Shown here: positions 20,332 through 27,832 of the stretch, piece after piece
Layout: each line of letters opens with the position of its first letter
How positions within the stretch are numbered: position 1 is the first letter of the stretch
From: Gemmatimonadota bacterium
GTDB taxonomy: Bacteria > Latescibacterota > UBA2968 > UBA8231
DNA: 64,000 bases
Assembly: GCA_018660835.1 (NCBI GenBank)
Contig: JABJJN010000008.1
Coordinates: forward strand, 46,977-110,976
Reading direction: 5' to 3'
Made by a program: the position numbers and the translations under genes
The notes under the pieces: model-generated
The model's database searches: none
What the model saw: the letters and a program-made list of their open reading frames with translations, nothing else
What the model was told of the DNA's origin: nothing

Positions 20332-22359
20332 CTACTTCAACAGCAGCAACTTGTGTGAGAGGACGCTCGCAGACAAAGTCAGGCGGGCGACATACGTGCC
20401 GGATGCGACATCTCGACCGTCCTGGTCCCTGCCGTCCCATGCGAGGCGATGGGTTCCCGCTCGAGAGAAACCCGACTGCAGGATCTTCACGCGCTGGCCT
20501 GTCAGATCATAGATAGACAGGTCGATGTCACCGTCTCGAGACAGCGTGAAAGGAATCATCGTCGTGGCATTGAAGGGATTCGGATAGTTTCTCGCCAGCG
20601 AGGATTCAGCGGGGGTCGTCTGCCCGTCGTCGAGAATCGCCGTCATGAGGGGGGCCAGATACTTGGTCAGCTCGGCGCCGCTGACGACGTGAAGTTCACC
20701 GGCATTGTTGCGCACATTGAATGGCCCGTCACCTGCCATGCCATTTGGCATCACATCTGTGTGGCCATCGCCATCCATGTCGCCCGCCGTCGCCCAATAG
20801 GCGGAGTAATCATTGGCATCCGGTGCTTCGATCCAGACTATCGGTACGACAGGATCTGCCAGATCAATCTCCCTGGGGAGATCCGGGCCGCCTGAGATCA
20901 CGACGATTCCTCCCGCGTGGCGACGCAGCAGGGGTCCATCGTCGCCGGGCACGCCGATAAACAGATCATCAAAGCCATCGCCCTGGATGTCGCCCGCAGA
21001 GATCGCATCACCGGAAATAGCGCCAACGGTGGCACCATAGATGATCATGACATCTGACGGTGGTTCAGCCATATCGATCACGCGATCGCGCAGATTCGAT
21101 GCACCGTAGACGACGTACGTGTCCCCCGCATCGCGACGTGAATTCCCCGGCCCATCGGCGCGATAGGCGCCGACGAGCAGATCAGCCAGGCCGTCACCAT
21201 TGATGTCCGCCGTCACAAATTCCTCGCCGAGACGATCAGGAGAATCTGACCCGCCATCGGCACCATACATAACAAGGATGGATTCACCGGTGCCTTGCAG
21301 GGCGCTTGCCAATTCGACACGACGGGCGCGGGTTCCATTACCAAAGATCACATAGAGTTCACCTGCCTGCGGTCGCAGATTGTCTGGCCCATCGCCGGCG
21401 CCCCCCGTCGCGTCATAGGCATTGCGCAGCGTCCCGTAAGCGCCGGCACCGATGACGGCATCGGCGAAACCATCGCCATCGACATCGTCGCAAGCGAGAG
21501 TCGAGCCGATATGATCCATTGGATCGGCACCATAGATGATGCTCGCACCATCCGGGGGGGTCGCCAACTCGGTCATCTGACCAAATTCATGTGGCCCGTA
21601 GAGAATCCATGTCTGGCCGGCTTCGTTGTCCATGGCGGCCGAGCCGCCCGCCTGATCTGCGCCGACGACGATGTCGCTGAAACCATCTGCGTCTACGTCA
21701 CCAGCAGCCATCCAGACACCGAGTCGTGCACGCGACTGCGGACCGTGAAAAACACTCACCCCGTCCATTGGCAGATTCGCCAGATCAAGATTCTCGCCAC
21801 GGGACAGCAGGTCGGAAAGCAGATGACCAGAGATCGCGTAGAGTTTGCCCGCATCGGCCCCGGCAGGGCCATCGGCATAGAAGGCGCCCACGAGCAGATC
21901 GTTGCGACCATCACCGTCGACATCGGCCACTTCCGATTTGATACCGAAGGTGTCCTGCGCCTGCTCACCGTAGATGGTGACGACATTGTCGAGGGACTGA
22001 CGTAGGTCCGCTGTGCCCGCAATGACGCCGAGGCTGAAATACACCGCCACTTCACCGGAGTTCGCGCGCAGATCATCAGCGGGCCCGTCGCCAGCCATGG
22101 CCGAAACCACCAGATCATCCAGGCCGTCGCCATTCAGATCGCCGGATCGAACGGGCGTCCCGAACTGCGCATCCTGGGGATCAGGGTTGTAAATCGTGAA
22201 TTGACCGGGGCGATCCGTCTCGGCCAGATCCCATACATGGACGATCTGGGCGGACGCGTCGACCCCAAACAAGAAGATCTGCAGGAACAAGAAGACTTGC
22301 AGGCCAAACAGGGACGTGTGCAGAGTGCTTCCGACGAGACCGGTGACGCTCGTACGCAT
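20332..22359 (-). CDS. secreted FG-GAP repeat protein with T9SS type-A C-terminal sorting domain
   Basis: Signal peptide; many FG-GAP/integrin-alpha-type repeats (GDLNGDGLDDLVV, DVDGDGRNDLLVGA and others). C-terminus NYPNPFNATTMIPFTL...IYDLTGQRV...AGTHRLAWDGRDQDGRDVASGTYVARL. Confidence 0.9.
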   Translation of the reverse strand: MRTSVTGLVGSTLHTSLFGLQVFLFLQIFLFGVDASAQIVHVWDLAETDRPGQFTIYNPDPQDAQFGTPVRSGDLNGDGLDDLVVSAMAGDGPADDLRANSGEVAVYFSLGVIAGTADLRQSLDNVVTIYGEQAQDTFGIKSEVADVDGDGRNDLLVGAFYADGPAGADAGKLYAISGHLLSDLLSRGENLDLANLPMDGVSVFHGPQSRARLGVWMAAGDVDADGFSDIVVGADQAGGSAAMDNEAGQTWILYGPHEFGQMTELATPPDGASIIYGADPMDHIGSTLACDDVDGDGFADAVIGAGAYGTLRNAYDATGGAGDGPDNLRPQAGELYVIFGNGTRARRVELASALQGTGESILVMYGADGGSDSPDRLGEEFVTADINGDGLADLLVGAYRADGPGNSRRDAGDTYVVYGASNLRDRVIDMAEPPSDVMIIYGATVGAISGDAISAGDIQGDGFDDLFIGVPGDDGPLLRRHAGGIVVISGGPDLPREIDLADPVVPIVWIEAPDANDYSAYWATAGDMDGDGHTDVMPNGMAGDGPFNVRNNAGELHVVSGAELTKYLAPLMTAILDDGQTTPAESSLARNYPNPFNATTMIPFTLSRDGDIDLSIYDLTGQRVKILQSGFSRAGTHRLAWDGRDQDGRDVASGTYVARLTLSASVLSHKLLLLK

Positions 22360-22459: not shown

Positions 22460-22498
22460 CAGTCAGGCCAGACAGTCAGGCCAGACAATCAGGTAGGC
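22460..22498. repeat. 13-bp tandem repeat, about 2.8 copies (cagtcaggccaga)
   Basis: Two perfect copies at 22460-22485, then a degenerate third (caatcaggtaggc) that contains the stop of the 22489-23175 gene. Confidence 0.6.
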
Positions 22499-23175
22499 GC
22501 GGAAGGTTGCACCGGAAGCGAAACATGCAGATGGTCGGCAGACCCAGCGTGGCGGTCTGCTTTGAGTCCCATCAGCAGAAACAGGCCCTGACGGGCCCAG
22601 TTGCGTAGGTCCCCCGCGTCGTGGACTCGCAGATCAACTGCATGAGCGTATCCATCCGTTTGCGGATAATGGCGGGATGTAAAAGGCAGACGCAACCCCA
22701 TCAGGTGATAATCCTCTGGACCACGGCGCAGATCGGTCAGCACGAGTGACTCGTCGCCGAGTCGAGCAACCCACAGTGCGTGCCGCAATGTCGGATGCAG
22801 ATGTGTCCATTCTGCACGCACATCGTCGCTCTTGAAGTTGTCCCGTGGGAAATGCGTCGTCGCCAAGGTGCCGGCCAGAACCATCAGAAGCGGCAGAGCA
22901 AGCAGGAGTCCGCCCGCTCGGCGAACCGAATGCAAGCGGAGGATCAGTCCAAGAGAGAGAAATAGAACAACGCCCCCTGCCGCCAGACCGGCAGCAACGG
23001 CCAGCCAGTCTGGAGACAGATGACCGGAGGCATTCTGATAGGAGAGGATCGCCAGTTGGCCCCGTACGGCGACAAACAGGGCCAGCACGGTTCCCGCCAC
23101 GGCACCGACGAGTCGCAAGCCCAGGTACATCACCCGGTTGCCCAAACGCCGATCCGCCGTGAGCCAGGTATTCAT
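22489..23175 (-). CDS. 3-TM membrane protein with extracytoplasmic LAS/peptidase-M15-like domain
   Basis: Three N-terminal TM helices. C-terminal domain with TSRHYPQTDGYAHAVDL (SxHxxGxAxD-like) and a terminal DHLHVS (HxH). ATGA overlap with the upstream DUF4097 gene. Confidence 0.55.
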   Translation of the reverse strand: MNTWLTADRRLGNRVMYLGLRLVGAVAGTVLALFVAVRGQLAILSYQNASGHLSPDWLAVAAGLAAGGVVLFLSLGLILRLHSVRRAGGLLLALPLLMVLAGTLATTHFPRDNFKSDDVRAEWTHLHPTLRHALWVARLGDESLVLTDLRRGPEDYHLMGLRLPFTSRHYPQTDGYAHAVDLRVHDAGDLRNWARQGLFLLMGLKADRHAGSADHLHVSLPVQPSAPT

Positions 23176-23969
23176 CTGCTCTGCAGTCGTACGCGACCGA
23201 TGTTGGCACGAGCCTTCAGCGTGGGGCCTCCGCCATTGATATCCCCGGAGAGACGTTCGCCGATCCAGGAGTCACGCTCGGTGCGAACATCAAAATCGCT
23301 GTCGACACTGCCGATGTTCACTGATGCATCCAGATGCACGGCAATATCCACAGGCAGCGTCAGTTCAACATCGCCCACATTGGTTTCGAATCGCAGTCGC
23401 CCTTCGCCTGCAAGGCGCCCGAGATTCACTTTGATCCGCCCGACATTGGCTTTGGCCTCGACGGTGCCCTCTTGCATGTCAACGTCGATCTCACCCACGT
23501 GAGTTTCGACGGCGACACGTCCGGACACACCTTCGACTGCGACCCTGCCCACATCCAGTTCCGCATCGATCTGCACTTGGTGCGGGACGGTGACCTCATA
23601 GTCGACGACATAGTCCTCATCCTTGTCATCGAGAAACTCACCTGGCACACGGGTGCGAACGTAGACTGCCCCTGGCGTCTCTTCGACGCGTATTTCCACT
23701 TCCTGCAGAAGGCGCTCGGCCTCTTCCTTGTTGTCAGCGTCGTCTACTTCGATCCGCACGACGATCCGCACTCGATCGACGTCTGCCCCCTTGATCTGAA
23801 CGTCACCGACCGTGTTGTCGATTTCGAATCGACCACCCGGTGCAAGAGAGGCAGAATAGGTCTCTTCCATCGTCGCTGAGGCTGCCCAGCTGGCGACGAC
23901 CATGCCCACGCTGAGCAGACTGATCGTGAGCAGATTCCGGCCGAGTGAGTGGGTCCGTTTCATGCTCAT
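23172..23969 (-). CDS. DUF4097 (toastrack-type beta-strand repeat) protein, secreted or anchored
   Basis: Signal/anchor segment, then repeated xVGxVxV strands (VGDVQIKG, VGRVAVEG, VGEIDVDM, VGRIKVNL, VGDVELTL, IGSVDSDF, IGRVRLQS). Confidence 0.8.
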   Translation of the reverse strand: MSMKRTHSLGRNLLTISLLSVGMVVASWAASATMEETYSASLAPGGRFEIDNTVGDVQIKGADVDRVRIVVRIEVDDADNKEEAERLLQEVEIRVEETPGAVYVRTRVPGEFLDDKDEDYVVDYEVTVPHQVQIDAELDVGRVAVEGVSGRVAVETHVGEIDVDMQEGTVEAKANVGRIKVNLGRLAGEGRLRFETNVGDVELTLPVDIAVHLDASVNIGSVDSDFDVRTERDSWIGERLSGDINGGGPTLKARANIGRVRLQSR

Positions 23970-24976
23970 GATTCTTCACCTGATTCCGCTGCGGCGTCAG
24001 TTCCCTGTGTCTCGTTGAATCTGCGCTCCAGGCGTTCGCACTTCTCGTTGAGAGCAAGCAGGATATCCTGCGTGTCGGTGAGTCGCTTTTCGATTTCGAT
24101 GAGACGCCCCCCCTCAGCCGGAGGCAGCGCCACATTGCGTAGAGCCATGCCGCCGGCGACGACGGCAAGGGCACCGATACCGTAGAGCAGAATCTGTCCG
24201 AGAGTGCTGGCTACAGACCCGACGGAAGACCACCACGGCATGAAAGCCCGCTCCGTGGACAACACGAGGGTGCCCACCCGATCTGGACCGTGGAACTTCT
24301 GCTCAGCGGAATTTCCCCATGGAATCCAGCGATGACCGTTGGTCTGCTTGTCGACGACAACCAGATCGAATCCGATGGCTCGACCGGCGTCAGTCAGATC
24401 GATTGGCAGTTCATCGAAATCGGTGAAGACGGGCACCGACCATTCATAGGTCACTTGATCACCATAGCCGTGGTAGCGCTGATAGGCCGCTTCGACGCCC
24501 TTGGAGGCCGCATCACGCCGTCGATTACCAACCAAGGCGCAGGGATTCCCACAACCCGGTACGTATTCACCAGCCCCAGGAACGAAGGAAAACTGGATGG
24601 GATTGTGCATCCCTCCACGGGGTTCACACGGAGCATCACTCTTGGGGTCGCCTCCCCAGGTAAAGACCTCCATGCCGTCTGTTGAATTCCAATGATTGCC
24701 GATATCGACTTCAGCGTAATCGACAACGGCAGCGACAAAGATACGATCGCGCTCAGGACTGTAGAGGACGCGAAAGGCGCCTTTGGGATTACTCGAGGCG
24801 CCATACTCTACGAGACCGTCTGGCCAATCGCTCAGGTCACCATCGATCTCGATATCGTCGTAGATCAGGGCGACCGCTTCGTTGCCACCACCACACAGAT
24901 CGGCCCGAATCGGGCTTGTGGCGGCCAGGCCGAAAACAACCAGGAAAATGAAACGAAACATGGTGGTGCTCTTCAT
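23966..24976 (-). CDS. bitopic membrane protein: CBM9-like ectodomain, one TM, conserved cytoplasmic C-terminal helix
   Basis: Signal peptide MKSTTMFRFIFLVVFGLAATSPIRA. CBM9-like marks (IDGDLSDWP, IGFDLVVVDK, WIPWG). TM segment ILLYGIGALAVVAGGMAL. Tail LIEIEKRLTDTQDILLALNEKCERLERRF. Confidence 0.75.
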   Translation of the reverse strand: MKSTTMFRFIFLVVFGLAATSPIRADLCGGGNEAVALIYDDIEIDGDLSDWPDGLVEYGASSNPKGAFRVLYSPERDRIFVAAVVDYAEVDIGNHWNSTDGMEVFTWGGDPKSDAPCEPRGGMHNPIQFSFVPGAGEYVPGCGNPCALVGNRRRDAASKGVEAAYQRYHGYGDQVTYEWSVPVFTDFDELPIDLTDAGRAIGFDLVVVDKQTNGHRWIPWGNSAEQKFHGPDRVGTLVLSTERAFMPWWSSVGSVASTLGQILLYGIGALAVVAGGMALRNVALPPAEGGRLIEIEKRLTDTQDILLALNEKCERLERRFNETQGTDAAAESGEES

Positions 24977-24980
24977 TCGA

Positions 24981-26564
24981 TCATACTCCCTGACTCGGCT
25001 TCTCGTCGAGTCGATCCAGCTTTTCACTCAGAGCGATCATCACATCCTGCGTATCGGTGAGACGCTGCTCAATGCGCTCGATCCGGTCCGTCATGCCTGA
25101 AACCTGCTTACCCGATTCACCACCTGTACGTCGTAGCACGGTGATGGTGATACCGATGGCACCCACCAGAAGAGCCAGCCCCATCAACGTGGAGAAAACG
25201 ATCTCAGACACATGCTCAGCACGGCTGCCAACATTGATGTCGGGAATGACAGGGATCGGGTAAGATGGGATGGATGGGATGGCCTCCATTTCGATGACGC
25301 TCCCTTCCGCCGCGGCAATGGCTTCAGCGCCGATCGCCATAGCGATCGCTTCCGCCACACGCACCTGCACCTGAGACTCGCTGGCGCTCCGAATCTGCTG
25401 CTCAATGGTCTGCTGCTGGCCGAAGCGAGCTTCGTTAATTCCCTCCTGCAATTCGGCCTGCGCAAGTTGTAACTCTTGTTGAGCCTGCTGCAGTCCCTGA
25501 CGCATTTCGGACAGATCCGCTTCGCTGGCCCCTTCTTGACGCATCCATTCCAGAACGCGCTCGTCATCGGTCGCATCCTGAACACCTTCCAGAATTCCGG
25601 CGACGAGGGAACCAATCCCATTCACGGCAACATCAAGGTCATCGGCGTGATTCTCATGAATCACAACATCTCCGGTATGTCCTACGTGACCGGTATGGGC
25701 CTCAGGCGTCGTCTCTGCGTGCGTTCGATGTGACCCACTCGCTGTCCAGGCGGAGAGCACGAGGTCACGCGGCTTCAGACTCGTCCCAGCGGCAAACATG
25801 GGACCACCTCCCAGCAGAACCCGCCCGACACGATCGTTGCTTGCCCACTTGGTGCCCACCGGCGGTCCCCACGGAACCCAGGCTGCATTGCCGGTACCCG
25901 GTCCATCGTGATCGACGATGACCACATCCAGACCGATCACATCTCCCGCCGTCAGATTGCTGCGCTGTCCAGGCCGATCAAACAGATCGATCTGCCACTC
26001 GTACGTGGTGATGTCTCCTTGGCGTCGCCAGACAGCTCGCGTTCTCGTCCGCCCGATAGCACCATTGCGCATCGCCGGATTGCCCTGATAGGAAACCATC
26101 TGATGGTCTCCAGGCACCATGACGTACTTCGTCGGCTGCTGTCCAGGTGAATTGCCTACCAGGCCCGATACGTAAATCTCCAAGCCATCGCTTTGTAGAT
26201 GATTCGGCCGCTGGGGGTTGTAGTTGACATCGTCGCGGACCTCGACGGCCAGATAGAGAAGATCTACGTCCGGCTGATAGCCGACCATCATGACGGGTGT
26301 CAGATCCTGACTGTCCGTCAGATCGCGCCCTGCCAGGTCGGTTCGCCCATAGACTTCAAAATTGTTGACGATCGGCTGCATCGACATCCCACGGGGCCAA
26401 TCGGACAGATCGCCATCAAGCCGAATACCATCCAACGGTACCGCCAGCGTACTCTGCGAAATGGCTTGAGTTGGCGCGGCACTGGCCAACAATGTGACGA
26501 TGCAAGTCGCAGCCAGGAACGAACAGCCTATGAGTCTGATGGAAAGTCTCTGTGGAGGGAGCAT
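24981..26564 (-). CDS. bitopic membrane protein: CBM9-like ectodomain, His-rich and coiled segment, one TM, the same cytoplasmic C-terminal helix
   Basis: Signal peptide. LDGDLSDWP, IGLDVVIVDHD, WVPWGPP. His-rich stretch HRTHAETTPEAHTGHVGHTGDVVIHENH. TM segment LMGLALLVGAIGITITVL. Tail RIERIEQRLTDTQDVMIALSEKLDRLDEK. Confidence 0.75.
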   Translation of the reverse strand: MLPPQRLSIRLIGCSFLAATCIVTLLASAAPTQAISQSTLAVPLDGIRLDGDLSDWPRGMSMQPIVNNFEVYGRTDLAGRDLTDSQDLTPVMMVGYQPDVDLLYLAVEVRDDVNYNPQRPNHLQSDGLEIYVSGLVGNSPGQQPTKYVMVPGDHQMVSYQGNPAMRNGAIGRTRTRAVWRRQGDITTYEWQIDLFDRPGQRSNLTAGDVIGLDVVIVDHDGPGTGNAAWVPWGPPVGTKWASNDRVGRVLLGGGPMFAAGTSLKPRDLVLSAWTASGSHRTHAETTPEAHTGHVGHTGDVVIHENHADDLDVAVNGIGSLVAGILEGVQDATDDERVLEWMRQEGASEADLSEMRQGLQQAQQELQLAQAELQEGINEARFGQQQTIEQQIRSASESQVQVRVAEAIAMAIGAEAIAAAEGSVIEMEAIPSIPSYPIPVIPDINVGSRAEHVSEIVFSTLMGLALLVGAIGITITVLRRTGGESGKQVSGMTDRIERIEQRLTDTQDVMIALSEKLDRLDEKPSQGV

Positions 26565-26629
26565 GTTGGGCCTCTGAGCAGGTGTGACGGCGAAGTCATT
26601 GGAAGACAGATCAGAATAAAGAAAACAAA

Positions 26630-26992
26630 TCAGTATTGGACGTATTGTACTCGTTGATCAACGCGGTCGCTCATATCGAGCAGTACCCCTTGAAGATCTG
26701 TCAGCTGGCCGTCGATTCGATCAATTCGGCCCTGCAATTCTCCGACACGGGCAGGCGCTACATCGGGCTCCTCCCACCGTCGCAACGGCCGACCTTCCAC
26801 GTCACGGAAGGAGCCGACGATGATGAAGATCAGATCGATCGTCGCCCAGATGCCAAAACCGCCGAAGGTCAGGACCATGAGGATCGCTGTGCCAATTTTG
26901 CCAACATAGAAACGATGAACACCCAGCCACCCGAAGAAGAAACACAGCAGACCCGCTGCCAGGCGAGACTTGGGAGAAACGTCAGCTTGCAT
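26630..26992 (-). CDS. TM2-domain membrane protein with the same C-terminal helix motif
   Basis: FFFGWLGVHRFYVGKIGTAILMVLTFGGFGIWATIDLI (TM2 domain). Tail RIDRIDGQLTDLQGVLLDMSDRVDQRV. I chose the start at MQADVSPK. Confidence 0.75.
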   Translation of the reverse strand: MQADVSPKSRLAAGLLCFFFGWLGVHRFYVGKIGTAILMVLTFGGFGIWATIDLIFIIVGSFRDVEGRPLRRWEEPDVAPARVGELQGRIDRIDGQLTDLQGVLLDMSDRVDQRVQYVQY

Positions 26993-27743
26993 TGGTCTCC
27001 TCTTTCTTATCGGATTCGGCTGCTTTGTCAGGTGCTGGCTCCTCGCCTCTGAGTGCAGCCAGCTCCTCATCGACGCGCCGGCGCAGGGCCAGTTTCTCGA
27101 ATTCCTGATTCAGCCCACCGTCGCCGAAGATATCCCGGCGGACCTCATGGGTCGCCGTGTCGGCTTCCTCTGCCAGGTCCAGGCGCTGACGAAGTCGTTC
27201 GAATTCGCTGCGCTTCTCCTGCAGTCGGCGCTCCATATTCTGTACATCTGAGACGGGGTCGCGCTCGGGCGTCACATCGATGTGCTGCTCGTCAGTTCGA
27301 CGGGCATTGCGCAGACGAGCGATGAGCGCTCCCTGCCGATTCTGGGCATCACGCAGATCGTCGCGCAACATGGACAGTTTCGCGCGTAGATCCTCGACCG
27401 TCTGCTGTCCCTGCGTCAGGGCAGGGTCGATGCCGGCGATCGTCTCTTCGAGAACCACTTTGCGCGCCAGTGCCTGTCGAGCCAGTGGCTCGTCACCCAG
27501 TTCAAGAGCGCGCGTCGCTTTGGCCTGCATCTGTTCAATGCGCTCACGCGTCGCCTTGCGTTCCTTCTCAAGGCGCCGCTGATCGGCGACGGCCGTGCTC
27601 ACAGCCCCAACGGCTCGATCCACAGTCGCTTCCATATCGCGAACCATCTGGCGCACCATCTTTTCTGGATCTTCAAGTCGGTCAAGGACTTCGTTCACAT
27701 TCGAGCGGACGATGTGGGTAATTCGATTCAGTGTCTTGTTCAT
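26982..27743 (-). CDS. pspA: phage shock protein A (PspA/IM30 family)
   Basis: MNKTLNRITHIVRSNVNEVLDRLEDPEKMVRQMVRDMEATVDRA..., with coiled coil throughout. AGGAG lies upstream of the ATG at 27743. The longer ORF start at 27824 falls inside the predicted promoter. Confidence 0.9.
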   Translation of the reverse strand: MNKTLNRITHIVRSNVNEVLDRLEDPEKMVRQMVRDMEATVDRAVGAVSTAVADQRRLEKERKATRERIEQMQAKATRALELGDEPLARQALARKVVLEETIAGIDPALTQGQQTVEDLRAKLSMLRDDLRDAQNRQGALIARLRNARRTDEQHIDVTPERDPVSDVQNMERRLQEKRSEFERLRQRLDLAEEADTATHEVRRDIFGDGGLNQEFEKLALRRRVDEELAALRGEEPAPDKAAESDKKEETNAS

Positions 27744-27815: not shown

Positions 27816-27832
27816 TGCAATCACCGTACCAG
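27816..27832 (-). promoter_or_regulatory. sigma54-type -24/-12 promoter upstream of pspA
   Basis: The minus strand reads CTGGTACGGTGATTGCA, against the consensus YTGGCACGrNNNTTGCW. There is one mismatch (C to T in the -24 box) and the GG/GC spacing is correct. It lies about 70 nt upstream of the pspA ATG. Confidence 0.65.

What the first reader, a model, noticed from the sequence alone, without database searches (positions are those of the whole stretch)
23966..26992. Three consecutive membrane proteins downstream of pspA share one conserved cytoplasmic C-terminal helix
Seen in sequence:
- The three genes after pspA encode proteins with very different extracytoplasmic or membrane parts: a 2-TM TM2-domain protein and two signal-peptide/CBM9-like ectodomain/single-TM proteins.
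- All three end with the same roughly 27-29-aa motif shortly after the last TM.
- The motif reads RIDRIDGQLTDLQGVLLDMSDRVDQRV (nt 26648-26728), RIERIEQRLTDTQDVMIALSEKLDRLDEK (nt 24999-25085) and LIEIEKRLTDTQDILLALNEKCERLERRF (nt 24017-24103).
- Two copies are nearly identical at the DNA level over the core (ctcaccgaYacgcaggat).
- By topology reasoning (signal peptide plus one TM, or two TMs with the N-terminus inside), the motif is cytoplasmic, which is where PspA acts.
Established knowledge: PspA/LiaH homologs are recruited to the membrane by small partner proteins (PspB/PspC in E. coli, LiaI in Bacillus).
Inference: this motif may be a modular PspA-docking (or mutual zipper) helix. It would couple carbohydrate-binding-type envelope sensor domains to the PspA effector. 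I do not recognise this architecture as described.
Basis: partly seen in the sequence, partly recalled or inferred. Interest (0 to 1): 0.8.

Follow-up and report, generated by a model that had tools for sequence, protein, structure and literature searches.

The report
Unannotated tail helix marking PspA-operon membrane proteins
Three different membrane proteins encoded after pspA end in the same cytoplasmic helix, which defines an unannotated protein family that almost always sits in sigma-54-driven pspA operons of Latescibacterota and probably plays the membrane-partner role that PspB/PspC play in E. coli.

Summary
The three motif copies translate exactly as quoted, and each lies shortly after the last TM segment on the predicted cytoplasmic side.

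The two CBM9 proteins are paralogs, so the window holds two independent architectures. The TM2 tail is nevertheless truly homologous to the others (hhalign 98.7%, E 3e-16).

The motif, R-h-x-x-h-E-x-R-[LM]-T-D-[TV]-Q-D-V-M-I-A-L-S-E-K-h-D-R, hits no Pfam, NCBIfam or PDB entry above threshold.

- It defines a family of 336 clusters at 90% identity. All named members are "hypothetical protein" from Latescibacterota or "Gemmatimonadetes" MAGs.
- Most members are 70-125 aa: one or two TM helices plus the tail, an architecture like PspB.
- Minorities carry CBM9 ectodomains or TM2 domains, as in the window.

PspA lies just upstream in 18 of 18 genome loci, 19 of 21 metagenome loci and 5 of 5 further contexts. 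It usually has a sigma-54 promoter (33 of 42 upstream regions; window 27816-27831).

Many operons also encode a soluble TPR histidine kinase and a sigma-54 response regulator.

Similarity to PspB and PspC is weak and subthreshold. Direct PspA binding is plausible but untested.

Verdict: a new variant of the PspA membrane-partner theme.

The parts
27816..27831 (-). Sigma-54 type -24/-12 promoter element TGGTACGGTGATTGCA, about 73 nt upstream of the pspA ATG
   Evidence: One mismatch to TGGCAC-N5-TTGCW. The same element lies upstream of pspA in 33 of 42 distinct related loci, against about 0.02 expected per region.
26982..27743 (-). pspA (PspA/IM30 family). The ATG at 27743 is the likely start; the longer GTG ORF reaching 27824 would overlap the promoter.
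   Evidence: PF04012 E 8e-31 and TIGR02977 E 3e-27. The exact protein is named PspA/IM30 family protein in NCBI MAGs.
26630..26992 (-). Gene for a TM2-domain protein with the C-terminal tail. The likely start is the ATG at 26992; the ORF extends to 27070.
   Evidence: PF05154 E 2e-20. Orthologs with the same tail occur in L002, L005, L010, L014, L017 and L018.
26648..26728 (-). Tail motif copy 1: RIDRIDGQLTDLQGVLLDMSDRVDQRV (TM2-type variant)
   Evidence: Translation. The subfamily is homologous to canonical tails, hhalign 98.7%.
24981..26564 (-). CBM9a gene: signal peptide, CBM9-like ectodomain, long linker, one TM, tail (527 aa)
   Evidence: PF06452 40.5 bits; TM at residues 459-477; annotated as hypothetical protein MBT5058353.1.
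24999..25085 (-). Tail motif copy 2: RIERIEQRLTDTQDVMIALSEKLDRLDEK (canonical)
23966..24976 (-). CBM9b gene, a paralog of CBM9a: signal peptide, CBM9-like ectodomain, one TM, tail. The likely start is the ATG at 24976; the ORF extends to the GTG at 25027.
   Evidence: PF06452 26.8 bits; 30% identity to CBM9a.
24017..24103 (-). Tail motif copy 3: LIEIEKRLTDTQDILLALNEKCERLERRF
23172..23969 (-). Toastrack (DUF4097, LiaG-like) protein with an N-terminal hydrophobic segment. Its start overlaps the CBM9b stop by 4 nt.
   Evidence: PF13349 26.9 bits against cut-off 22.9; NF049997 LiaG E 3.5e-11, below its cut-off.
22489..23175 (-). 228-aa multi-TM protein that closes the operon. It is conserved at this position in related type-1 loci.
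   Evidence: No Pfam hit. Orthologs follow the tail genes in L001, L005, L009, L010, L012-L015, L017, L018 and L027, and in L069-L071 and L082-L087.

Best explanation
The shared C-terminal helix is the defining cytoplasmic module of an unannotated family of membrane proteins that belong to sigma-54-controlled pspA operons in Latescibacterota.

Shown:
- The module is a conserved helix of about 27 residues. Its hydrophobic a/d positions fit a heptad pattern, and its polar face is almost invariant (T-D-x-Q-D ... S-E-K-x-D-R).
- It starts a median of 20 residues after the last TM, on the positive-inside side.
- It rides on at least four unrelated anchors: TM2 domain, CBM9 ectodomain plus TM, and small 1-TM and 2-TM proteins.
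- One to four tail-bearing paralogs lie immediately downstream of pspA.

Inferred:
- These proteins are the membrane partners of PspA in this lineage, functionally equivalent to PspB/PspC or LiaI.
- The tails assemble with each other and present a conserved surface that recruits or regulates cytoplasmic PspA.
- In the window's operon, the CBM9 ectodomains and the TM2 domain would couple events in the envelope to that cytoplasmic step.
For: Homology and conservation:
- Motif logo from 83 near-complete unique cores (of 251) shows more than 3.3 bits at R, E, R, T, D, Q, D, S, E, K, D, R.
- TM2-type and canonical tails are homologous.
- AlphaFold2 gives a TM helix plus a long helix, with pLDDT about 90 over the motif.

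Modularity:
- Among 144 representative hits: 60 small 1-TM, 16 small proteins with two or more TMs, 22 CBM9 plus TM, 5 TM2.

Linkage to PspA:
- 18/18 GTDB loci.
- 19/21 metagenome loci with enough upstream sequence.
- 5/5 contexts of diverse representatives.
- The link holds for two different PspA paralogs in the same genomes.

Regulation:
- Sigma-54 promoters lie upstream of pspA in 33 of 42 regions and in the window.

Topology:
- K+R averages 2.3 after the last TM against 0.5 before it.

Precedent and weak similarity:
- In E. coli the post-TM leucine-zipper region of PspC is needed for PspA interaction, and the soluble PspC69-119 fragment binds PspA (PMC3068692).
- The top recurring weak NCBIfam hits among 51 members are PspC (4 members) and PspB (3 members, best E 1.8e-4). 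One member hits Pfam PspB at E 0.001.
Against: - No interaction with PspA was predicted or measured.
- Two of 21 metagenome loci carry a tail protein with no PspA within the available flank (L073, L078).
- The PspA association counts come from related genomes of one lineage, so conserved operon inheritance inflates them.
- Most operons also encode a soluble TPR histidine kinase, which is an equally plausible binding partner.
- The PspB and PspC resemblance is subthreshold. It is limited to the TM and the first 'RLxxhEr' turns, and the invariant core has no counterpart in either protein.
Confidence: 0.5

Rival explanations
1. The tails are only a zipper that holds the different membrane proteins of the operon together as homo- or hetero-oligomers. 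PspA is contacted by something else or not at all.
For: - The hydrophobic positions fit a heptad a/d pattern with a broad hydrophobic centre (VMIAL) (sequence inspection).
- Most operons carry two to four tail paralogs with distinct, subfamily-specific variants. Examples are the TM2-type ending RRxYGHL next to the canonical type, and RTRDVLDVMIALSEKMDRWE next to RRLTDTQDVMIALSEKMDRWE.
- E. coli PspB self-associates and binds PspC (PMC3068692).
Against: - The polar, solvent-facing positions are as invariant as the hydrophobic ones. A plain zipper does not need that; it suggests a further partner.
- Some operons have a single tail protein (L029, L039, L054).
- This explanation is not exclusive of PspA docking.
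Confidence: 0.25
2. The tail is the input ligand of the operon's soluble TPR histidine kinase. Membrane-anchored tails bind the TPR domain and so control the REC-sigma-54 activator that drives the pspA promoter.
For: - In the operons of all five diverse representatives and in 20 of the 52 metagenome loci, the tail genes are followed by a kinase with N-terminal TPR repeats (Pfam for L021/L029) and no TM segment (maximum hydropathy 1.2 or less in the six kinases tested), then by a REC-Sigma54_activat regulator.
- Sigma-54 promoters precede pspA.
- TPR domains typically bind short helical or extended peptides (established knowledge).
Against: - The window-type operon (PspA, TM2, CBM9, 228-aa protein) has no kinase or regulator next to it.
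- PspA itself could be the TPR ligand, by analogy with PspA-PspF.
- There are no interaction data.
Confidence: 0.2
3. The resemblance is a generic coiled-coil or low-complexity similarity with no specific function. The window's three copies reflect paralogy plus chance.
For: - CBM9a and CBM9b are paralogs.
- The TM2 tail has only 12/32 identities to CBM9a.
- Many weak Pfam hits are to unrelated coiled-coil families.
Against: - Profile-profile comparison of the TM2-type tails with the others gives E 3e-16.
- Bridging proteins exist, for example the L025 TM2 protein with a canonical RLTDTQDVMITLSEKYDRLE tail.
- 177 representative clusters score E 0.001 or better against 1.84 billion proteins.
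- Polar positions are near-invariant.
- The position after the last TM and the operon context are conserved.
Confidence: 0.02

Closest known systems
PspB (PF06667 / TIGR02976), the proteobacterial envelope stress response membrane protein
   Same: - Typical family members are 70-125 aa with an N-terminal TM anchor, a basic stretch and a cytoplasmic helix.
- They are encoded directly after pspA behind a sigma-54 promoter.
- The helix begins with a similar R-h-x-x-h-E turn (PspB RMRERIQALES versus eRLeeiEr).
- One member reaches E 0.001 on Pfam PspB, and three reach E 1 or better on TIGR02976, best 1.8e-4.
   Different: - All hits are below the curated cut-offs.
- hhalign probability is only 57% over 14 columns.
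- The invariant core TDxQDVMIALSEKxDR has no counterpart in PspB.
- PspB's ILDAEHPNWR ending is absent.
- The module occurs in several paralogs per operon and is fused to TM2 and CBM9 proteins.
C-terminal leucine-zipper region of PspC (E. coli residues about 69-119)
   Same: - It is a helix after the TM, with leucine-zipper character, in a Psp membrane partner.
- In E. coli it is required for PspA interaction and psp induction (PMC3068692).
- There is weak local similarity: PspC ETRLREMER aligns to the start of the motif, and TIGR02978 is the most frequent weak NCBIfam hit.
   Different: - No PspC domain (PF04024) was detected in any tail protein or in the precomputed annotations of neighbouring genes.
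- Similarity does not extend into the conserved core.
LiaI and LiaF/LiaG (Toastrack) partners of LiaH in Firmicutes
   Same: - A small membrane protein encoded next to a PspA homolog is thought to anchor it.
- The window operon also contains a Toastrack/LiaG-like gene.
   Different: - There is no sequence similarity to the LiaI-LiaF-TM region.
- Regulation here is by a sigma-54 promoter and an NtrC-type regulator, not LiaRS.
- Toastrack is absent from most related type-1 loci.
SHOCT and SHOCT-like short C-terminal helical modules described for PSP-associated and TM2 proteins (PMC11237479)
   Same: A short helical module found at protein termini on many otherwise unrelated domains, proposed to assemble membrane-associated complexes.
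   Different: - No SHOCT model hits the tails.
- The tail is one long helix, not a bi-helical unit.
- It has its own conserved sequence.

Membership tests
PspB (PF06667 / TIGR02976) | Scores above the curated model cut-off | tested here: not met
   The window tails give no hit at E 10 or better. One of 51 family members hits PF06667, at 19.5 bits against cut-off 25.6. Three of 51 hit TIGR02976 at E 1 or better, best 1.8e-4. hhalign against enterobacterial PspB gives 57% over 14 columns.
PspB (PF06667 / TIGR02976) | About 75-aa protein with one N-terminal TM and a cytoplasmic helix | tested here: inconclusive
   Met by the 60 small 1-TM representatives and by the AF2 model. Not met by the three window proteins, which carry TM2 or CBM9 modules.
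PspB (PF06667 / TIGR02976) | Encoded in a sigma-54-dependent pspA operon together with pspC | tested here: inconclusive
   pspA adjacency and the sigma-54 promoter are met. No PspC-domain gene was seen in the loci.
PspC (PF04024 / TIGR02978) | PspC domain (N-terminal region plus TM) detected by the model | tested here: not met
   There is no PF04024 hit. TIGR02978 gives only four weak hits, best E 0.0027. The family HMM scores 7.9 bits on E. coli PspC, limited to the TM and ETRLREMER.
PspA-binding membrane partner (functional class) | Physical interaction with PspA | not testable with these tools
   No multimer prediction or experiment was available. Only genomic linkage could be shown.
SHOCT (PF09851 and SHOCT-like models) | Match to a SHOCT model; bi-helical C-terminal unit | tested here: not met
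   No SHOCT hit on the tails or family members. AF2 shows one continuous helix.
Coiled coil / leucine zipper | Heptad a/d hydrophobic periodicity in a continuous helix | tested here: met
   Hydrophobic residues at motif positions 12, 15, 19, 22, 26, 29, 33 and 36 (3-4 spacing) in the logo. The helix spans residues 42-85 with pLDDT about 90. The oligomeric state was not tested.
TM2 domain (PF05154) | Pfam model above cut-off | tested here: met
   73.1 bits against cut-off 27.9 for the 26630-27070 ORF.
CBM9-like (PF06452) | Pfam model above cut-off | tested here: met
   40.5 and 26.8 bits against cut-off 23.4. Carbohydrate binding itself was not tested.
PspA/IM30 (PF04012) | Pfam model above cut-off | tested here: met
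   107.8 bits against cut-off 33.9.

The most novel reading that the evidence does not exclude
The tail is a portable docking module that plugs any membrane anchor into the PspA (bacterial ESCRT-III) membrane-repair machinery, its TPR-kinase/sigma-54 control circuit, or both. Under this reading, the CBM9-tail proteins would be the first Psp partners with a dedicated extracytoplasmic glycan-binding sensor domain, so that the state of envelope polysaccharide would directly gate PspA recruitment or induction.
Probability: 0.3. Interest if true: 0.75.

Novelty: new variant of a known kind. Interest (0 to 1): 0.6.

Why it matters
How PspA/IM30/ESCRT-III proteins are targeted to damaged membrane is understood only in a few model bacteria (PspBC, LiaI).

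This finding defines a sequence-distinct, unannotated partner family with a sharp motif of about 27 residues, which makes it easy to test by two-hybrid, peptide binding or multimer prediction.

It also shows the module being fused naturally to extracytoplasmic CBM9 and TM2 domains. That suggests what signals the system may read.

The work also outlines a complete candidate regulon for an uncultured phylum: a sigma-54 promoter, pspA, tail proteins, a soluble TPR kinase and an NtrC-type regulator.

If PspB and PspC turn out to be distant relatives, the family would extend them well beyond Proteobacteria.

Tried and rejected
- **Known domain.** Pfam, NCBIfam and PDB sequence searches of the tails and of 51 family members gave nothing above threshold. 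The only PDB hits were chance 10-18 residue matches.
- **More copies in the window.** None were found.
- **Tail as a mimic of a PspA helix.** The idea came from a visual resemblance to FERFEQRVEDTEAE. The tail HMM scores on 48 PspAs were no better than on reversed sequences, so it was rejected.
- **True PspB homology.** hhalign against an enterobacterial PspB alignment gave only 57% over 14 columns. That PspB alignment had low diversity because only the closest 120 hits are listed, so the question stays open.
- **Pure paralogy or chance.** Rejected.
- **Technical notes.** Fold search was not run, because a single helix gives meaningless matches. PspA-tail complex prediction was not possible with the single-chain tool.


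Full report
**1. What is in the window**

On the minus strand there is a tight operon.
- pspA, 26982-27743. The longer GTG ORF reaches 27824.
- A TM2-domain protein, 26630-26992/27070.
- CBM9a, a 527-aa protein, 24981-26564.
- CBM9b, a 353-aa protein, 23966-24976/25027.
- A Toastrack/LiaG-like protein, 23172-23969.
- A 228-aa multi-TM protein, 22489-23175.

Gene ends overlap or lie within 65 nt of the next start.

Pfam confirms PspA_IM30 (E 8e-31), TM2 (E 2e-20), CBM9_1 in both large proteins (40.5 and 26.8 bits, cut-off 23.4) and Toastrack DUF4097 (26.9 bits, cut-off 22.9). NCBIfam agrees on PspA and gives a sub-cut-off LiaG match.

**2.

- The three peptides translate exactly as quoted.
- Hydropathy puts each peptide after the last TM. 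CBM9a has a signal peptide and a TM at residues 459-477. CBM9b has a signal peptide and a TM at about 272-296. The TM2 protein has a hydrophobic block at residues 56-84 (two TMs expected for a TM2 domain).
- The DNA core is 17/18 identical between the CBM9 genes.
- A three-sequence HMM finds only these three copies in six-frame translation of the 64-kb window.
- The CBM9 proteins are paralogs (30% identity over about 260 ectodomain residues), so their shared tail is inherited.
- The TM2 tail is more divergent (12/32 identities to CBM9a, E 1e-4) but truly homologous. Ten TM2-type tails aligned against 51 small-protein tails give hhalign probability 98.7%, E 3e-16.
- Bridging proteins exist, such as the L025 TM2 protein ending in RLTDTQDVMITLSEKYDRLE.

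**3. The motif defines a family**

- A word-seeded search with the tails found ten small proteins or fragments carrying R[LM]TDTQDVMIALSEKLDR.
- An exhaustive HMMER scan of 1.84 billion representatives found 177 clusters at E 0.001 or better. About ten of these are repetitive false positives.
- A later profile search of the 5.8-billion set gave 336 clusters. None has a Pfam domain. Every named one is a 'hypothetical protein' from Candidatus Latescibacterota or 'Gemmatimonadetes' MAGs.
- The window's own proteins are in NCBI as MBT5058355.1 (PspA/IM30) and MBT5058353.1 (hypothetical) from a 'Gemmatimonadetes bacterium' MAG. GTDB record titles of close relatives say Latescibacterota.

Census of 144 usable representatives:

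| Architecture | Count |
|---|---|
| Small 1-TM plus tail | 60 |
| Small, two or more TMs, plus tail | 16 |
| CBM9 plus TM plus tail | 22 |
| TM2 plus tail | 5 |
| No TM detected (many are truncated gene calls) | 38 |
| CBM9 fragment plus tail | 3 |

- The motif begins a median of 20 residues after the last TM and ends a median of 9 residues before the C-terminus.
- K+R averages 2.3 in the 12 residues after the last TM against 0.5 before it. The tail is therefore cytoplasmic in 1-TM (N-out), 2-TM (N-in) and signal-peptide-plus-TM proteins alike.
- The logo is R-[LIM]-x-x-[IL]-E-x-R-[LM]-T-D-[TVI]-Q-D-V-M-I-A-L-S-E-K-[LYF]-D-R-h-[ED]. Both the a/d hydrophobic positions and the polar positions carry more than 3.3 bits.
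- AlphaFold2 with a 51-sequence alignment gives a TM helix (residues 2-39), a low-confidence linker and one long helix (42-85). pLDDT is about 90 over the motif.

**4. Genomic context**

*GTDB species representatives.* The motif pattern hit 18 loci, all in Latescibacterota-type MAGs. All 18 have a PspA gene within about 2 kb upstream. Two operon types occur, often in the same genome.
- Type 1, the window type: SpoU methylase ... PspA, TM2+tail, CBM9+tail, optionally a second CBM9+tail, then the 228-aa protein.
- Type 2 uses a different PspA paralog. It is followed by a protein of about 155 aa with two TMs and a winged-helix-like C-terminus (only weak HTH hits). Next come one or two small tail proteins, a TPR histidine kinase and a REC-sigma-54 activator.

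*Diverse small representatives.* Contexts of five of them (L028, L029, L031, L034, L037) show the same type-2 layout, with one to four tandem tail paralogs.

*Metagenome scan.* It returned 52 loci. Of the 21 with at least 2.5 kb upstream, 19 have PspA. The exceptions are L073 (a 99-aa 2-TM protein with the tail) and L078 (a 304-aa CBM9+TM+tail protein).

*Kinases.* The six tested have no TM segment, and Pfam shows N-terminal TPR repeats in the two scanned (L021, L029).

*Caveat.* These counts are not phylogenetically independent, but they span two PspA paralogs and representatives below 50% identity.

**5. Regulation**

TGGTACGGTGATTGCA at 27816-27831 (minus strand) is a one-mismatch sigma-54 -24/-12 element about 73 nt upstream of the pspA ATG. 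It argues for the ATG at 27743 as the start.

The strict pattern TGG[CT]A[CT]-N5-TTGC[AT] occurs upstream of pspA in 33 of 42 distinct related loci of both types. About 0.02 would be expected per region.

This looks like a Psp-type regulon: a sigma-54 promoter plus an enhancer-binding regulator. The regulator here is a two-component REC-AAA+ protein with a soluble TPR kinase, not PspF.

**6. Relation to known partners**

- No curated model is passed.
- Weak signals point consistently at Psp membrane proteins. One member hits Pfam PspB at E 0.001, 19.5 bits (cut-off 25.6), covering the TM through the first 20 motif residues.
- Among 18,950 NCBIfam models, the two most recurrent weak hits across 51 members are PspC (4 members) and PspB (3 members, best E 1.8e-4).
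- The family HMM scores 11 bits on E. coli PspB and 7.9 bits on PspC. These matches are confined to the TM and to RMRERIQALES / ETRLREMER.
- hhalign against a low-diversity PspB alignment gives 57% over 14 columns.
- The invariant core has no counterpart in either protein.
- The comparative PSP survey (PMC11237479) does not mention TM2, CBM9 or Latescibacteria. [quoted passage not shown]
- In E. coli the post-TM leucine-zipper region of PspC is required for PspA interaction, and soluble PspC69-119 binds PspA (PMC3068692). This gives a direct precedent for the proposed role.

**7. Mechanism**

Best-supported reading: the tail proteins are the membrane partners of PspA in this lineage.

The tails probably oligomerise, given the several paralogs per operon and the heptad pattern. 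They present a conserved polar surface to a cytoplasmic partner.

PspA is the most likely partner, because it is the one gene that co-occurs in both operon types. The soluble TPR kinase is a serious alternative in type-2 operons. A pure inter-paralog zipper is also possible.

The hypothesis that the tail mimics a PspA helix was tested and rejected.

None of the binding steps is shown.

**8. Verdict**

The feature is real, conserved and unannotated.

The fourth, interaction with PspA, remains untested.

It is best classed as a new variant of the PspB/PspC/LiaI partner theme. Its unusual natural fusions to CBM9 and TM2 modules are the most interesting aspect.

Noticed in passing
L005 2385-2387 (also L006, L016); L002 1668-1675; L007 2058-2076; L009 6529-6532: In several relatives the CBM9 ectodomain and the TM/tail lie on separate ORFs. 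L005 has an in-frame TGA inside the TM helix. L002 has an 8-nt ATGGATGA overlap that yields a 39-aa tail-only peptide seen on 5 contigs. L007 has a separate 73-aa TM+tail gene in another frame. The split recurs at the same junction, so it may be real gene fission and not assembly error.
   Followed up: partly
L027 1350-2059; L082-L087 (e.g. L085 5417-6126); proteins P0155, P0148: One clade has a decayed type-1 operon. The TM2 and CBM9 genes are reduced to ORFs of about 47-85 aa, while a roughly 47-aa tail ORF stays intact. P0155 joins an N-terminal CBM9 fragment directly to the tail with no TM. The tail seems to be retained when its anchor is lost.
   Followed up: no
L021 7304-7774; L029 7515-7976; L037 6152-6667: A conserved protein of about 150-190 aa sits directly after pspA in type-2 operons. 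It has two TM helices and a C-terminal winged-helix-like domain (RLTVTEAA..GLTxEExExILKxLxxGGYVExEV). Pfam gives only weak HTH_IclR / SelB-wing hits. It looks like another unannotated Psp-operon component.
   Followed up: partly
L031 7455-10292: One type-2 operon variant inserts an ECF-type sigma-70 factor, a 201-aa protein and a Band_7 (flotillin/stomatin-like) protein between the tail genes and the TPR kinase. Band_7 is a known PspA neighbour in other phyla.
   Followed up: no
window 22489-23175: The 228-aa protein that closes the operon has about three TM segments and a C-terminal region containing AHAVDL and DHLHVS. These are reminiscent of the H-x-x-x-D ... H-x-H signature of LAS-type metallopeptidases. 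Pfam and NCBIfam give no hit, so this is only a visual lead.
   Followed up: no
window 20332-22359: Downstream on the same strand is a 675-aa FG-GAP repeat protein ending in a T9SS/Por-type C-terminal sorting-like sequence (NYPNPFNATTMIPFTL). Similar FG-GAP plus Por_Secre_tail genes lie near the operon in relatives (L001).
   Followed up: no
window 23172-23969: The Toastrack/LiaG-like gene is present in the window's operon. In the type-1 relatives examined it is absent from this slot; where detected (L027, L070/L071, L082, L084, L085, L087, L079) it lies downstream of the 228-aa gene, not between CBM9b and the 228-aa gene as in the window. It has an N-terminal hydrophobic segment, so its side of the membrane is unclear.
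   Followed up: no
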